From the NCBI RefSeq assembly GCF_003334255.1, contig NZ_QOWU01000142.1: 1,978 bases of DNA. One strand, given 5' to 3'. Positions 1 to 1,978 of this stretch are shown here, in pieces. The DNA comes from Escherichia coli. GTDB taxonomy: Bacteria > Pseudomonadota > Gammaproteobacteria > Enterobacterales > Enterobacteriaceae. The first letter of the stretch is position 1; each line of letters opens with the position of its first letter. The translations under genes and the position numbers were made by a program. The notes under the pieces are model-generated. The model searched no databases and had not been told where the DNA came from. It saw only the letters and a list, made by a program, of their open reading frames with translations.

Positions 1-586
1 TTGTGCGCTGCTTCAGTATGCTGATGGCTGTCTGTTCTCCCGGTACGATGTCACTCTCACGGTATACGGAGCGGATTTTTTCCACCGGTAATCCCAGCGA
101 ACGACGCAATACAGACTCCGGAAGCGCATCAGCCACCTGATGACAAACCGCCCACCAGCATAACTCTGCCAGCGACAGTTCCCGCTCCTGTGTGCCATTC
201 ATTGCGTGACGTATGACATCAATCATCCTGGCTGCCAGATTCTGCTGAGCAAGTTGATCGAGTGATTCTGATGTCTGGTCGCGCAGCTGGTTGTCACAGT
301 GCCAGCACAACACCATCGCGCCGGTACCGTAACGGTGAATGACGGTTTCGCTGTGATGATAATCACCGTGTGGCCACTGGCAGGATTTCACGTGACGTAA
401 TAACCAGTCAGACAGTGCACCAGCGCCACCCGCAGCACGAATCACCCGTTCGTTGCTGAAAAATGGCAGTAATGTTTTATCCTCTGCCAGCGGCTGTCGA
501 ACGGCAGGAACGACTCCGGACGGCAGATTACGCATGCTTTTCGGTTCCGGCTCCACCAGTACCCGGGTATTGTGGAATACCGGCAT
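1..586 (-). CDS. Hypothetical prophage protein, N-terminal ~195 codons in window (gene continues past left edge); His/Cys-rich motif; possibly YdfU/DUF968-like by synteny only
   Basis: Hand translation of the minus strand (codon tops at coordinates = 1 mod 3) is open from the in-frame stop at 604-602 to position 1 with no stop. The peptide is protein-like: ...MPVFHNTRVLVEPEPKSMRNLPSGVVPAVRQPLAEDKTLLPFFSNERVIRAAGGAGALSDWLLRHVKSCQWPHGDYHHSETVIHRYGTGAMVLCWHCDNQLRDQ...ELCWWAVCHQVADALPESVLRRSLGLPVEKIRSVYRESDIVPGEQTAISILKQRT. It is absent from the ORF track, presumably because it has no stop inside the window. The first ATG is at 586-584 and has a poor RBS (see frameshift finding). The family guess rests only on gene order resembling hokD-rem-ydfU in E. 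coli K-12 Qin prophage, recalled from memory. Confidence 0.55.
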   Translation of the reverse strand, partial: MPVFHNTRVLVEPEPKSMRNLPSGVVPAVRQPLAEDKTLLPFFSNERVIRAAGGAGALSDWLLRHVKSCQWPHGDYHHSETVIHRYGTGAMVLCWHCDNQLRDQTSESLDQLAQQNLAARMIDVIRHAMNGTQERELSLAELCWWAVCHQVADALPESVLRRSLGLPVEKIRSVYRESDIVPGEQTAISILKQRT

Positions 587-659
587 GGATTCACGGCCCG
601 GCTTAACGATCACCAGCCCGAGTTCCGGTACCAGAACAGGTCGAAGTAATACCCGCACG

Positions 660-938
660 TTACCTCCAGATGCGTTGCAGGAATGTGCGGGACGGACGCG
701 GTGGGCGTTCAGAGTAAGGAAGCCTGACGGAGATTATCCAGTGACGATAATCGAGGCTGAGGGTTTTCCTAAACTCATACCCACGTCTGCGGTAGTTCTG
801 AATCAGCCATTCGGCCTGTTCTTCAGTGCATGGGGCGTGCTGTAACCTGTCAGATTTGAATGCATGAGAACGCCGCCCGTGCCTGCTGGCAAAGACGGCT
901 GAATTATCAGAATTGTATAATTTGGTATCGTGCGCCAT
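660..938 (-). CDS. Small hypothetical protein (92 aa), immediately downstream of hok; rem-like position
   Basis: Internal ATG (938-936) of the 660..1019 track ORF gives MAHDTKLYNSDNSAVFASRHGRRSHAFKSDRLQHAPCTEEQAEWLIQNYRRRGYEFRKTLSLDYRHW...; it is the only open minus-strand frame across this interval. The track's TTG start at 1019 lies inside the hok terminator stem and is discounted. Its TAA stop (662-660) sits 2 nt before a GGAGG-preceded GTG of the next gene, which looks like operon packing. Weak points: poor SD (GAGA) and several rare AGG/AGA codons. Confidence 0.4.
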   Translation of the reverse strand: MAHDTKLYNSDNSAVFASRHGRRSHAFKSDRLQHAPCTEEQAEWLIQNYRRRGYEFRKTLSLDYRHWIISVRLPYSERPPRPSRTFLQRIWR

Positions 939-1010
939 CGGTTGTCTCTGCTGGCGCAGCAGGTGCCAGTTGTTCAGGCTGGCGTGCGAATTGTAAACCA
1001 GAATGCCAGG

Positions 1011-1037
1011 AAAAAACAAAACCCGCCGAAGCGGGTT
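1011..1037 (-). terminator. Rho-independent terminator of the hok mRNA
   Basis: Minus strand reads AACCCGC-UUCG-GCGGGUU followed by UUGUUUUUU: a 7-bp GC-rich stem (1020-1026 / 1031-1037) with a UUCG tetraloop, then a U-tract (1019-1011). Confidence 0.75.
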
Positions 1038-1040
1038 AAG

Positions 1041-1056
1041 TGCGGGTGCGTTGAGG
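1041..1056 (-). promoter_or_regulatory. fbi-like (fold-back inhibition) element in the hok mRNA 3' UTR
   Basis: Plus 1041-1056 tgcgggtgcgttgagg is identical, apart from one extra g, to the reverse complement of plus 1419-1433. In the minus-strand transcript the 3' segment CCUCAACGCACCCGCA can therefore pair with the 5' end UGCGGGUGCUUGAGG, as in the known hok mRNA tac/fbi interaction. Confidence 0.5.
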
Positions 1057-1105
1057 ATGCCTGACTCATCAGAGGTGGCGAGGGATTTCTCCCCCGCCAG
1101 GTCTC

Positions 1106-1261
1106 TTACTCCTCAGGTTCGTAAGCTGTGAAGACAGTGACCTCCGTCTGGCCGGTTCGGATTCGTACCTCGCAGAGGTCTTTCCTCGTTACCAGTGCCG
1201 TCACAATGACGGTAATACAGATGACGATCAGGGCGACTAACATCGCCTTTTGCTGCTTCAT
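1106..1261 (-). CDS. hokD: Hok/Gef family type I toxin (51 aa), HokD/RelF-like
   Basis: Translation from ATG 1261-1259 gives MKQQKAMLVALIVICITVIVTALVTRKDLCEVRIRTGQTEVTVFTAYEPEE, stop TAA at 1108-1106. By memory this is near-identical to E. coli HokD/RelF and very close to HokC/Gef (single TM helix, conserved KDLCEVRIRTGQTEV core). GGAG SD lies 9 nt upstream (1274-1271). The surrounding RNA architecture matches hok/sok. Confidence 0.9.
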   Translation of the reverse strand: MKQQKAMLVALIVICITVIVTALVTRKDLCEVRIRTGQTEVTVFTAYEPEE

Positions 1262-1318
1262 AGCCTGCTTCTCCTTGCCTTTCGGCGTGTAAGAGGCTAA
1301 CCTACATGTGACTAGCAT
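1106..1318 (-). CDS. mok: mok-like (modulation of killing) reading frame, in-frame 19-codon N-terminal extension of hok
   Basis: Track ORF 1106..1318 (70 aa) starts MLVTCRLASYTPKGKEKQA and runs straight into hok. GAGG SD (1330-1327) lies 8 nt upstream of ATG 1318-1316. The same-frame, same-stop arrangement matches chromosomal mokC/hokC as I recall the K-12 annotation. The start region is covered by the predicted Sok antisense RNA. Confidence 0.55.
   Translation of the reverse strand: MLVTCRLASYTPKGKEKQAMKQQKAMLVALIVICITVIVTALVTRKDLCEVRIRTGQTEVTVFTAYEPEE
1275..1303 (+). promoter_or_regulatory. Putative sigma70 promoter of the antisense Sok RNA, inside mok
   Basis: -35 TTGCCT (1275-1280), 17-bp spacer, -10 TAACCT (1298-1303); predicted start near 1310. 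Position and layout parallel the plasmid R1 sok promoter as I recall it (TTGCGC / TATCCT). Confidence 0.45.
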
Positions 1319-1384
1319 GAAATTGGCCTCAGATTAATGTTAAGCGTCCTGCAAGACGCATAATGTTAACTGGGGCTTTTCTCT
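1310..1384 (+). ncRNA. sok: Sok-like antisense RNA (type I antitoxin), boundaries approximate
   Basis: Plus-strand transcript would begin with a single-stranded tail (about 1310-1333) complementary to the mok SD and start codon, followed by a long imperfect stem-loop (1334-1348 / 1355-1369, loop CUGCAA) and a U-rich tail GGGGCUUUUCUCU (about 1371-1384). This mirrors the Sok architecture as I recall it. Ends are not experimentally defined. Confidence 0.45.
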
Positions 1385-1433
1385 GTCTGCCTTACGGTGG
1401 CATGCCCGAGGCAGACAGCCTCAAGCACCCGCA
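1383..1433 (-). promoter_or_regulatory. hok mRNA 5' leader: tac-like element plus 10-bp leader stem
   Basis: Minus-strand 5' end GCGGGUGCUUGAGG (1433-1419) is complementary to the 3' fbi element. It is followed directly by a perfect 10-bp inverted repeat (1383-1392 / 1409-1418) with a 16-nt loop containing the palindrome GGCATGCC (1399-1406). This aligns with the plasmid R1 hok mRNA 5' end as recalled from memory. Confidence 0.45.
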
Positions 1434-1436
1434 GCA

Positions 1437-1464
1437 ATTCTACTTAACTCTCGCTTTACCGCAA
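1437..1464 (-). promoter_or_regulatory. Putative sigma70 promoter of the hok mRNA
   Basis: Read on the minus strand: -35 TTGCGG (1464-1459), 16-bp spacer, -10 TAGAAT (1442-1437), giving a start near 1432 at the beginning of the tac-like sequence. Predicted transcript is about 420 nt to the terminator, consistent with hok mRNAs of roughly 400 nt. Confidence 0.4.
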
Positions 1465-1476
1465 ACCGTTTTTACC

Positions 1477-1498
1477 CGATATGGGAATTCCCATATCG
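1477..1498. repeat. 22-bp perfect palindrome CGATATGGGAATTCCCATATCG centred on an EcoRI site
   Basis: Plus 1477-1498 equals its own reverse complement across all 22 positions. It lies between the stop of the small ORF at 1507 and the putative hok promoter -35, about 12 bp upstream of it. Confidence 0.9.
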
Positions 1499-1506
1499 TA
1501 ATGAAT

Positions 1507-1611
1507 TCAGTTCCCTAGTCGATCCATCAAAAACACAACCAGGCAGTAAACACCCACAACAGCAATAACAGCCAGCGCACCTTCCATTGCCAGTGAGATA
1601 TCATCCGACAC
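1507..1611 (-). CDS. Small hypothetical membrane peptide (34 aa), GTG start
   Basis: GGAGG (1620-1616) lies 4 nt upstream of GTG 1611-1609; hand translation gives MSDDISLAMEGALAVIAVVGVYCLVVFLMDRLGN, stop TGA 1509-1507. Polar N-terminus, one predicted TM helix, short charged C-terminus. Below the ORF-track size cut-off. Confidence 0.3.
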   Translation of the reverse strand: MSDDISLAMEGALAVIAVVGVYCLVVFLMDRLGN

Positions 1612-1646
1612 ATTCCCTCCTTTGGTGTTAATCCCGGCGAACGCTT

Positions 1647-1730
1647 TTACCCACACCGACAAATAACATATACTAAAAAAGCGATAGCCATAGCAACGCC
1701 TGTAATTGCAAATGCTTCAGGCCAGATCAT
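1647..1730 (-). CDS. Small hypothetical hydrophobic peptide (27 aa), translationally coupled to the upstream DUF551-like gene
   Basis: AGGAGG (1743-1738) lies 7 nt upstream of ATG 1730-1728, which overlaps the TGA stop (1729-1727) of the upstream gene in an ATGA arrangement. Translation gives MIWPEAFAITGVAMAIAFLVYVICRCG, stop TAA 1649-1647. Confidence 0.3.
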   Translation of the reverse strand: MIWPEAFAITGVAMAIAFLVYVICRCG

Positions 1731-1978
1731 TGGCGCACCTCCTGCGGCGGTTCTGGTAACGGCATCCAGTCGGTTACATTGCGGCTCTGTGTTTCGAAAA
1801 ATTCATCACCATTACGGACTACATCAAAAAACTCACCGTCTCGATATTGCGCATAAAGAACGAATGCGCCATCACATAAAATAATTACGTGCTGACCATC
1901 ATCCGGCATTCGCTCACTACAGCTTATCCAACCATCCGGAGTTACCGGAGAGTTGCCCGATAGTGCATTCTGCTCCAG
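1727..1978 (-). CDS. Phage protein, C-terminal part, DUF551-like (gene starts beyond right edge)
   Basis: The frame is open from the window edge: LEQNALSGNSPVTPDGWISCSERMPDDGQHVIILCDGAFVLYAQYRDGEFFDVVRNGDEFFETQSRNVTDWMPLPEPPQEVRQ, stop TGA 1729-1727. The W-I-x-x-x-E-R-(L/M)-P...DG...V(T/D)-x-W-M-P-L-P-E-P-P pattern matches what I recall of the DUF551 C-terminal domain of lambdoid prophage proteins. The track's ATG at 1909 is an internal Met. Confidence 0.7.
   Translation of the reverse strand: MEQNALSGNSPVTPDGWISCSERMPDDGQHVIILCDGAFVLYAQYRDGEFFDVVRNGDEFFETQSRNVTDWMPLPEPPQEVRQ

What the first reader, a model, noticed from the sequence alone, without database searches (positions are those of the whole stretch)
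1..1978. Gene order resembles the Qin-prophage hokD neighbourhood but with different upstream content
Downstream of hok the order (small ORF, then larger ORF) resembles hokD-rem-ydfU in K-12 as I recall it. Upstream, instead of relB-relE there is a DUF551-like gene plus two micro-ORFs, and hok retains its own promoter and antisense RNA. This suggests the hok cassette is a mobile moron with alternative upstream partners in different lambdoid prophages. Comparing them could show how the relBE-hokD fusion arose.
Basis: inference. Interest (0 to 1): 0.3.

Follow-up and report, generated by a model that had tools for sequence, protein, structure and literature searches.

The report
Intact hokD toxin cassette in prophage
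This is an ordinary, already-annotated stretch of a lambda-like E. coli prophage carrying a complete hok/sok toxin-antitoxin cassette, and comparing it with K-12 shows base by base how the well-known relB-relE-hokD operon arose when a foreign segment replaced the front half of such a cassette.

Summary
The window is 100% identical to an E. coli prophage (strain JE86-ST05) and about 93% identical to O157 Sakai Sp6. All genes lie on the minus strand: a DUF551 fragment, two tiny membrane ORFs, a complete hok/mok/sok cassette, a 92-aa ORF, then the start of a DUF968 (YdfU-like) gene.

The small ORF, however, is not rem. It matches an unannotated K-12 ORF between ydfU and rem. rem lies in a 422-bp Qin segment where the window has 56 bp.

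Qin's hokD is cut 14 nt before its ATG, so it lacks the hok promoter, mok start and sok. Prophages 98% identical to Qin keep the whole cassette. They show that 2,068 bp of K-12 (relE-relB-ydfV-flxA-ydfW) replaced about 4.5 kb.

Across about 90 hok copies the upstream flank falls into 30 types and the downstream flank into 8. No hok-less site was found among close relatives, so hok is a fixed landmark between two cargo slots rather than a hopping gene.

One result is unexplained: four unrelated rearrangements break at the same nucleotide, at the hok ribosome-binding site. The feature is known biology and of low interest.

The parts
1..658 (-). N-terminal 219 codons of a DUF968/HNH-like gene, the YdfU homologue. 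GTG start at 658; the gene runs off the window's left end.
   Evidence: PGAP annotation. phrog_96 E=2.6e-101. Full-length protein: Pfam DUF968 E=4.9e-64 and 78% identity to K-12 YdfU. 84% DNA identity to Qin.
660..938 (-). 92-aa ORF of PHROG 1212, a conserved nin-region gene. It is not rem. Its TAA stop lies 1 nt before the DUF968 GTG start.
   Evidence: phrog_1212 E=1.1e-32. 76% identity to an unannotated K-12 ORF. No similarity to Rem. No Pfam, NCBIfam or PADLOC match. Distant homologues lie between NinB and NinG/HNH in Gifsy-1 and mEp237.
956..1011 (.). 56-bp spacer that is the empty state of a second cargo slot. Other prophages carry rem, RmrT/RmrA, ParDE or a 393-nt ORF here.
   Evidence: (422 bp with rem in Qin).
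1020..1037 (-). Intrinsic terminator of the hok mRNA (AACCCGC-TTCG-GCGGGTT followed by a T run).
   Evidence: The 3' limit of cassette homology clusters at 1011-1024.
1044..1056 (-). fbi (fold-back inhibition) element, CCUCAACGCACCC, which pairs with the mRNA 5' end.
   Evidence: MFE and centroid fold of 1012-1430(-), z=-7.05. It is retained as an orphan element in Qin.
1106..1261 (-). hok toxin CDS, 51 aa, HokD type.
   Evidence: phrog_251 E=1.5e-31. 48/51 identical to K-12 HokD and 44/51 to the HokW-type toxin. PGAP names it HokD.
1262..1318 (-). mok N-terminal extension, in frame with hok (70-aa ORF 1106-1318). It contains the hok Shine-Dalgarno AGGAGA at 1270-1275, the recurrent breakpoint.
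1308..1385 (+). Predicted Sok antisense RNA: single-stranded 5' tail, long hairpin and U-rich tail. Putative promoter TTGCCT (1275-1280) and TAACCT (1298-1303).
   Evidence: Fold z=-5.06. Lies inside the Rfam RF01794 match 1256-1430, 117.6 bits. The promoter is a manual reading and was not found by the consensus scan.
1419..1464 (-). hok mRNA 5' end with the tac element (1419-1430), and the putative hok promoter: -10 TAGAAT 1437-1442, -35 TTGCGG 1459-1464.
   Evidence: The Rfam model starts at 1430. tac/fbi pairing. The promoter is a manual reading. The upstream limit of cassette homology falls at 1429-1480.
1477..1498 (.). Perfect 22-bp palindrome CGATATGGGAATTCCCATATCG at the upstream edge of the cassette.
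   Evidence: 15 of 80 loci lose homology at exactly 1477.
1507..1611 (-). Hydrophobic micro-ORF: 34 aa as annotated by PGAP, or 51 aa from a TTG start at 1662.
   Evidence: Conserved in about 25 of 80 loci by tblastn.
1647..1730 (-). Hydrophobic 27-aa micro-ORF. Its ATG overlaps the DUF551 stop codon (ATGA).
   Evidence: Found by tblastn in more than half of the 80 loci.
1727..1978 (-). C-terminal DUF551 domain. PGAP flags the gene as a pseudogene fragment in the source genome. There is a mosaic boundary near 1955.
   Evidence: Pfam DUF551 E=1.7e-21. PGAP pseudogene flags. Many loci end homology at 1955.

Best explanation
The window is part of the nin region (between the replication genes and antiterminator Q) of a lambda-like E. 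coli prophage. It carries a complete HokD-type hok/mok/sok type I toxin-antitoxin cassette of about 450 bp (window about 1012-1477). Downstream lies a conserved core block: a PHROG-1212 small ORF, DUF968/YdfU, RusA and Q. Upstream lies variable cargo, here a DUF551 fragment and two micro-ORFs. The resemblance to Qin reflects common descent of the whole hok-to-Q module. K-12 Qin is a derived state. A 2,068-bp segment (relE, relB, ydfV, flxA, ydfW; L002 7290-9357) replaced about 4.5 kb running from the middle of a ydaT/ydfX-like gene, through the replication genes and a cargo gene, to the nucleotide just 5' of the hok Shine-Dalgarno. That removed the hok promoter, tac, the mok start and sok, and left the hok CDS, an orphan fbi element and the terminator behind relE. 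Separately, Qin has rem in the slot between hok and the small ORF, which is empty in the window. Inferred mechanism of the window's cassette, by homology to R1 hok/sok and Sp5 hokW-sokW: a stable hok mRNA is held untranslatable by 5'-3' (tac/fbi) pairing. After 3' processing it becomes translatable through mok. Unstable Sok antisense RNA blocks this step. When Sok is lost, Hok damages the inner membrane.
For: Shown here. The window is 100% identical to an annotated prophage, and 618 genomes carry at least 80% of it. Colinear DNA homology to Qin: window 1-955 at 84% and 1012-1275 at 96.6%. Protein identities: YdfU 78%, small ORF 76%, Hok 94%. Cassette completeness: Rfam 117.6 bits, tac/fbi pairing z=-7.05, Sok-like hairpin, terminator. 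Four viral contigs (L057, L068, L073, L082) are about 98% identical to Qin from quuQ to hokD, stop matching at exactly L002 7289, and carry the full leader. L073 resumes Qin homology at L002 9358. The same two boundaries recur across genomes, and 1,123 of 5,426 genomes carry the Qin-type block. PhiR42_1 is 99.9% identical to Qin over 6.5 kb. Flank asymmetry: 30 upstream against 8 downstream types. From the literature: hokW-sokW, a close relative, is a functional type I TA (PMC8621323); the tac/fbi/ucb/dcb mechanism is summarised in PMC9841398. From my own knowledge: Pedersen and Gerdes 1999 reported hokD as inactivated by a major rearrangement.
Against: Promoters for hok and sok were not found by the consensus scan, and no expression or toxicity data exist for this locus. 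Hok scores below the NCBIfam curated cut-off (46 against 73 bits), although PGAP still names it HokD. The order of the rem and relBE events, and the donor of the relBE-flxA segment, are not established. The biological role in a prophage (stabilisation, help with lysis, or phage exclusion) is inferred only.
Confidence: 0.85

Rival explanations
1. One reading: the hok cassette is itself the mobile unit (a moron) that has inserted next to different genes in different lambdoid prophages.
For: Homology limits are sharp and coincide with the transcription unit. The same cassette, with DUF551 upstream, lies near att in Stx2 phages, with a YgiW-like gene downstream. Plasmid copies share only window about 1044-1439, roughly the fbi-to-tac transcript. 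PHROGs files the family under 'moron'.
Against: The downstream neighbour is nearly constant (76 of 91 copies). All 11 E. coli phage or genome loci examined for a close small-ORF copy also have hok. No empty site was found. Only distant relatives lack hok: Gifsy-1 and mEp237, whose small ORF is about 35% identical. Variation is better explained by cargo slots on both sides of a fixed hok.
Confidence: 0.3
2. The relBE-hokD fusion and the other junctions at the hok Shine-Dalgarno were seeded by a transposable element that targets this site. Breaks at the element's end were then repaired by joining to foreign DNA.
For: A 1,095-bp IS481-family element sits at exactly this site with a 6-bp AGGAGA duplication, in 16 viral contigs and at least 5 leader alleles. 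A 9-nt tandem duplication at the same spot (L117, L260) resembles an excision footprint. The Qin and L016 junctions fall at the same nucleotide. No other breakpoint was seen in the 155-nt leader among 80 loci.
Against: Neither Qin nor L016 retains any IS sequence. In all complete IS copies the left flank is simply the hok leader, so no IS-mediated exchange was actually observed. The relBE segment end (TGTCAACGC...) is also a discrete boundary on plasmids that lack hok, so that end may define the junction instead. The pattern-based scans only detect junctions at this one position.
Confidence: 0.25
3. The similar gene order is coincidental or convergent, and the flanks are unrelated to Qin.
For: The small ORF is indeed unrelated to rem.
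Against: Colinear DNA homology of 84-97% runs across DUF968, the small ORF and hok.
Confidence: 0.02

Closest known systems
hokD (relF) region of cryptic prophage Qin, E. coli K-12 (relB-relE-hokD-rem-ydfU-quuQ)
   Same: Orthologous hok CDS, fbi element and terminator (96.6% DNA identity, 48/51 aa), orthologous YdfU (78%), and an orthologous 92-aa ORF that is not annotated in K-12. Same order and strand.
   Different: Qin lacks the hok promoter, tac, the mok start and sok, because it is cut 14 nt 5' of the ATG and relE follows. Qin has rem in a 422-bp segment where the window has 56 bp. Qin lacks rusA. The window has DUF551 and micro-ORFs upstream instead of relBE.
hokW-sokW of Stx2 prophage Sp5 (Takada et al. 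2021, PMC8621323)
   Same: Complete prophage-borne hok/sok cassette. Toxin 44/51 identical, DNA about 91% identical over window 1034-1477, and a DUF551 gene upstream. Shown experimentally to be a type I TA that depends on RNase III and Hfq and that aids phage release.
   Different: It lies near att/int with a YgiW-like gene downstream, not in the nin region before DUF968-rusA-Q. No experiments exist for the window's locus.
hok/sok (parB) of plasmid R1
   Same: Same architecture: hok, overlapping mok, antisense Sok, tac/fbi fold-back and 3' terminator.
   Different: The toxin aligns only weakly with my recalled R1 Hok sequence. R1 hok/sok is plasmid-borne and acts in post-segregational killing, whereas here the cassette is embedded in a prophage early operon.
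Prophage Sp6 of E. coli O157:H7 Sakai and equivalent O157 prophages
   Same: Same DUF551, micro-ORFs, hok, small ORF, DUF968 arrangement at 93% identity over window 1-1955.
   Different: Allelic differences only. The older Sakai annotation calls the gene 'MokC'.

Membership tests
[quoted passage not shown] | Hok-type toxin ORF of about 50 aa with an N-terminal transmembrane segment | tested here: met
   phrog_251 E=1.5e-31. 48/51 identical to HokD. The NCBIfam Hok subfamily matches only below its cut-off, 46 against 73 bits.
[quoted passage not shown] | mok reading frame that starts upstream of hok and overlaps it | tested here: met
   70-aa ORF 1106-1318, an in-frame extension like the annotated MokC and MokW proteins.
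[quoted passage not shown] | Conserved leader and antisense Sok region | tested here: met
   Rfam RF01794 117.6 bits against a gathering score of 59, full model length. Sok-like hairpin on the + strand, z=-5.06.
[quoted passage not shown] | Long-range 5'-3' (tac/fbi) pairing in the full-length mRNA | tested here: met
   Window 1419-1430 pairs with 1044-1056 in both the MFE and centroid structures, z=-7.05.
[quoted passage not shown] | Own promoters for hok and sok | tested here: inconclusive
   The consensus scan found none. Weak hexamers at the expected positions were read by eye.
[quoted passage not shown] | Toxicity of Hok and its neutralisation by Sok | not testable with these tools
   Shown only for relatives: HokD CDS toxicity (bioRxiv 10.1101/2025.08.07.668861) and hokW-sokW.
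Qin-type relBEF operon (relB-relE-hokD fusion) | relE immediately 5' of a leaderless hokD, joined at ...GCGTTGAC|AGGAG | tested here: not met
   The window has the full leader (...AAGGCA|AGGAG) and no relBE.
Rem (K-12 b1561, PHROG 340) | Sequence similarity of the small ORF to Rem | tested here: not met
   No BLASTP alignment at E<=100. Different PHROGs.
Phage moron (Hendrix/Juhala sense) | Autonomous transcription unit with its own promoter and terminator, lying between phage genes | tested here: inconclusive
   The terminator is present and the homology limits coincide with the unit. The promoter is not confirmed.
Phage moron (Hendrix/Juhala sense) | Presence/absence polymorphism between otherwise closely related phages (an empty site) | tested here: not met
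   No empty site in any locus examined or in the targeted scans. Only distant relatives lack hok.
DUF968 / YdfU | Pfam DUF968 domain | tested here: met
   E=4.9e-64 on the full-length protein, plus HNHc_6 at 2.9e-07. The window holds only residues 1-219, mostly upstream of the domain.
DUF551 | Pfam DUF551 domain | tested here: met
   E=1.7e-21, model positions 1-68 of 68.

The most novel reading that the evidence does not exclude
The nucleotide just 5' of the hok Shine-Dalgarno (window 1275/1276) is a site-specific insertion or recombination hotspot. An IS481-family element, the relBE cassette (which has its own discrete end), a large prophage deletion and a 9-nt duplication all break there. 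On this reading the classical relBEF operon results from targeted insertion into a hok locus, and hok marks two flanking hotspots for defence and toxin-antitoxin cargo in lambdoid nin regions.
Probability: 0.3. Interest if true: 0.4.

Novelty: already known. Interest (0 to 1): 0.22.

Why it matters
The window itself is routine: an annotated prophage segment with a known type of toxin-antitoxin cassette. The comparison yields four small but concrete results.

1. It gives a base-level account of how the classical relB-relE-hokD (relBEF) operon of K-12 arose. A 2,068-bp foreign segment replaced about 4.5 kb of a Qin-like prophage and beheaded a complete hok/sok cassette.
2. It points to a conserved, intact 92-aa ORF that is missing from the K-12 reference annotation.
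3. It shows that hok sits between two cargo slots holding a retron, PD-T7-1, RmrTA, ParDE, RelBE or Paa in different prophages. That may help when mining prophages for defence genes.
4. It reveals an unexplained recurrent breakpoint at the hok ribosome-binding site.

Tried and rejected
- **Promoter scan.** The consensus promoter scan over 900-1750 found neither the hok nor the sok promoter, so promoter calls remain manual inferences.
- **Small ORF families.** Pfam, NCBIfam and PADLOC gave nothing for the small ORF. Rem also had no PADLOC hit and only a far-sub-threshold NCBIfam hit. The third-party labels 'toxin to Rem' and 'Antitoxin Rem' could not be substantiated, and I did not adopt them.
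- **isrK.** I rejected the weak Rfam isrK hit at 1016-1097 (27 bits against a gathering score of 50). It reflects only the hok terminator hairpin.
- **ISSen3 as the junction.** I tested whether the ISSen3 copy next to relE on plasmid NZ_CP100982.1 defines the relBE/hok junction. Its inverted repeats end 177 nt away, so this was rejected.
- **IS-mediated exchange.** I tested whether the IS481-family element had swapped upstream partners. In every complete copy the left flank is the hok leader with a target-site duplication, so no exchange was seen.
- **Empty-site searches.** A gapped exact pattern joining the upstream palindrome to the downstream anchor gave 0 hits in the viral contigs. The two E. 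coli genomes that matched only the small-ORF side (H262, H263) turned out to have hok further upstream, with RmrTA-like or ParDE cargo in between.
- **Script problems.** My first scripts failed because locus L002 is stored inside L001.fa. One script printed oversized output because of an index bug at contig ends; only its complete-IS rows were used.

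
Full report
**What the window is.** The 1,978-bp window is 100% identical to a chromosomal prophage of E. coli JE86-ST05 and three other strains. It is about 93% identical to prophages of O157:H7, including Sakai Sp6. In all, 618 of 5,426 complete E. coli genomes hold a place covering at least 80% of it.

In the source genome all genes lie on the minus strand, and the wider order is as follows:
- replication genes, then ead/Ea22-like and DUF551 fragments;
- the window;
- RusA, antiterminator Q, a methyltransferase, tRNAs, then the lysis genes.

The window is therefore part of the nin region of a lambda-like prophage.

**Contents of the window**:
- **DUF551 C-terminal domain, 1727-1978.** Pfam E=1.7e-21. 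PGAP flags the gene as a pseudogene fragment.
- **27-aa hydrophobic ORF, 1647-1730.** Its ATG overlaps the DUF551 stop codon.
- **34/51-aa hydrophobic ORF, 1507-1611/1662.**
- **The hok cassette.**
- **92-aa ORF, 660-938.**
- **The first 219 codons of a DUF968 gene.** Its GTG start at 658 lies 1 nt after the small ORF's stop codon. The full-length protein gives Pfam DUF968 E=4.9e-64 plus an HNH-like motif.

**The hok cassette is complete.**
- The Rfam sok model RF01794 matches 1256-1430(-) over its full length at 117.6 bits, against a gathering score of 59.
- The 70-aa ORF 1106-1318 is an in-frame mok extension of the 51-aa hok, as in annotated MokC and MokW.
- Folding the predicted mRNA (1430 to 1012) pairs the 5' end GGGUGCUUGAGG with CCUCAACGCACCC (window 1044-1056), just before the terminator. 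This is the tac/fbi fold-back that defines hok mRNAs (z=-7.05). The mechanism is summarised in PMC9841398.
- The opposite strand at 1308-1385 folds into a Sok-like RNA: a free 5' tail, a long hairpin and a U-rich tail (z=-5.06).
- An intrinsic terminator lies at 1020-1037(-).
- The consensus scan found no promoter. By eye, TTGCGG-16 nt-TAGAAT lies 6 nt upstream of position 1430, and TTGCCT-17 nt-TAACCT precedes the Sok hairpin. These readings are inferences.
- Hok is 48/51 identical to K-12 HokD. It is 44/51 identical to the HokW-type toxin of Stx2 phages. The hokW-sokW locus has been shown experimentally to be a type I TA that aids phage release (PMC8621323).

**Comparison with Qin.** I fetched NC_000913.3 1638000-1652000 (locus L002) and aligned it with the window.
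- Window 1-955 matches L002 5648-6602 at 84%. This covers ydfU plus an unannotated stretch.
- Window 1012-1275 matches L002 7025-7289 at 96.6%. This covers the hokD 3' end, the CDS and 14 nt upstream of the ATG.
- YdfU is 78% identical at the protein level.
- The small ORF is not rem. BLASTP finds nothing and the two fall in different PHROGs.
- The small ORF is 76% identical to an intact 92-aa ORF at L002 6307-6585. The K-12 RefSeq record does not annotate that ORF.
- rem (L002 6652-6903) lies in a 422-bp Qin-only segment where the window has 56 bp (956-1011).
- Upstream, homology stops at window 1275. Qin therefore keeps the hok Shine-Dalgarno, CDS, fbi element and terminator, but lacks the hok promoter, tac, the mok start and sok. 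This agrees with my recollection of Pedersen and Gerdes 1999, who described hokD as inactivated by a major rearrangement.

**How the relBE-hokD fusion arose.** I collected 80 viral contigs carrying HokD-type toxins.
- Four of them (L057, L068, L073, L082) are about 98% identical to Qin from quuQ through hokD. They stop matching at exactly L002 7289, yet they carry the full hok leader.
- L073 resumes Qin homology at L002 9358, in ydfX/dicC.
- K-12 L002 7290-9357 (2,068 bp: relE, relB, ydfV, flxA, ydfW) therefore occupies the place of about 4.5 kb in L073. That 4.5 kb encodes the rest of a 173-aa YdaT/YdfX-like protein, replication genes, a retron Ec67-family RT-Toprim (738.8 bits against a cut-off of 450) and the hok 5' half.
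- Both boundaries recur across E. coli genomes, and 1,123 of 5,426 genomes carry the Qin-type block.
- Phage PhiR42_1 from ECOR13 is 99.9% identical to Qin over 6.5 kb.
- A roughly 712-bp relBE core (L002 7290-8001) also occurs on plasmids. It starts at the same nucleotide (TGTCAACGC...) with unrelated sequence beside it.
- The neighbouring ISSen3 ends 177 nt away and does not explain that boundary.

**Is hok a mobile moron?**

Evidence in favour:
- Homology to the window breaks at 1011-1024 and at 1429-1480, which are the edges of the transcription unit.
- Stx2 phages carry DUF551-hok near att, with a YgiW-like gene downstream.
- Plasmid copies share only window about 1044-1439.

Evidence against:
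- Clustering 700-bp flanks gave 30 upstream types among 94 copies, but only 8 downstream types among 91, with 76 in one cluster.
- Every E. coli phage with a close copy of the small ORF has hok upstream: Tritos, HannyBb, PhiR42_1, vB_EcoS-689R5, Evi, mEp460_ev081, 813R8 and 640R1.
- A gapped-pattern scan for an empty site found nothing.
- The two genomes that matched only the small-ORF side still had hok, with RmrTA-like or ParDE genes inserted between hok and the small ORF.
- Only distant relatives lack hok. In Gifsy-1 and mEp237 the small ORF is about 35% identical, and the order is NinB, small ORF, NinG/HNH.

The better description is a fixed hok landmark with a cargo slot on each side. The upstream slot holds DUF551 plus micro-ORFs, Paa/AdfO, a retron, PD-T7-1, a GNAT acetyltransferase with an HTH regulator, or RelBE. 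The slot between hok and the small ORF holds nothing, rem, a 393-nt ORF, RmrT/RmrA or ParDE.

**An unexplained recurrence.** Unrelated sequences abut hok at the same nucleotide, just 5' of AGGAGAAGCAGGCTATG:
- relE in Qin;
- a truncated YqaJ/RecE-like exonuclease gene in the Rac-like remnant L016;
- the end of a 1,095-bp IS481-family element (221.4 bits, just under the cut-off of 224), flanked by a 6-bp AGGAGA duplication;
- a 9-nt tandem duplication in L117 and L260.

A scan of all viral contigs for copies in which the preceding base is not the leader's A returned 58 stretches. Counted over all loci held, these fall into only these four junction types: 44 relE, 16 IS, 2 duplication and 2 L016-type. 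The IS sits at this site in at least five leader alleles. Among the 80 surveyed loci, no other breakpoint fell inside the 155-nt leader.

A targeted insertion or breakage hotspot is plausible but not shown. Neither Qin nor L016 retains IS sequence, and the pattern scans can only see junctions at this one position.

**Verdict.** The feature itself, a HokD-type hok/sok cassette in a lambdoid prophage, is already annotated and of a known kind. A recent survey already reports that hok is enriched in prophages (bioRxiv 10.1101/2025.08.07.668861). Interest is low. The breakpoint recurrence and the two cargo slots are the only points that might merit follow-up.

Noticed in passing
L002 6307-6585 (NC_000913.3 1644306-1644584, minus strand): An intact 92-aa ORF between ydfU and rem in K-12 MG1655 is not annotated in RefSeq. 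It belongs to PHROG 1212 (E=1.7e-35), is 76% identical to the window's small ORF, and PGAP annotates it as a hypothetical protein in other genomes.
   Followed up: partly
window 1270-1276; L033 3892-4986; L117; L016; L002 7289/7290: Four unrelated structures break at the same nucleotide at the hok Shine-Dalgarno: relE, an IS481-family IS with an AGGAGA target duplication, a 9-nt tandem duplication, and a large prophage deletion. No other breakpoint was seen in the leader among 80 loci.
   Followed up: partly
L002 7290-8001; L092 4001-4713; plasmid hits H202-H209: The relBE cassette has a recurrent discrete end (TGTCAACGCAAAGC..., 57 nt past the relE stop codon). Qin and many Enterobacter, Klebsiella and E. 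coli plasmids share it, with unrelated DNA beyond. The nearby ISSen3 ends 177 nt away and is not the cause.
   Followed up: partly
window 1477-1498: A perfect 22-bp palindrome, CGATATGGGAATTCCCATATCG, lies exactly where 15 of 80 loci lose homology upstream of the hok promoter. Its function is unknown.
   Followed up: no
L073 2604-4439; L095 1218-2567; L086 1638-3394; L267 3515-4077: The slots on either side of hok hold anti-phage or TA cargo in other prophages: a retron Ec67-type RT-Toprim, PD-T7-1, RmrT/RmrA and ParDE. This suggests a defence hotspot in lambdoid nin regions that is anchored by hok.
   Followed up: partly
window 1507-1730: Two hydrophobic micro-ORFs (27 aa and 34/51 aa) are conserved upstream of hok in many loci. 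The 27-aa ORF is translationally coupled to DUF551 by an ATGA overlap. They have no confident family match (the 27-aa ORF has one weak PHROG hit, E=0.0035).
   Followed up: no
window 1016-1097 (-): A weak Rfam match to isrK, the Salmonella Gifsy-1 sRNA (27.1 bits against a gathering score of 50), falls over the hok 3' UTR and terminator. It is probably only hairpin similarity.
   Followed up: no
hok leader just 5' of the SD (window about 1277-1290) in loci L098-L216: The small hairpin before the hok SD occurs as GCC-GAAA-GGC in most loci and as GACC-GAAA-GGTC in 27 copies. The changes keep the stem base-paired.
   Followed up: no
phage records ON470583.1, ON470619.1, ON470612.1, PV340562.1: Third-party annotations call the small ORF 'toxin to Rem' and call Rem 'Antitoxin Rem'. 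I found no support in PADLOC or NCBIfam. The window has the supposed toxin without rem.
   Followed up: partly
window about 1955-1978; L001 10727-11635: The DUF551 gene is split into two pseudogene fragments in the source genome. Many related loci lose homology at window 1955, which points to a mosaic junction inside the gene.
   Followed up: no
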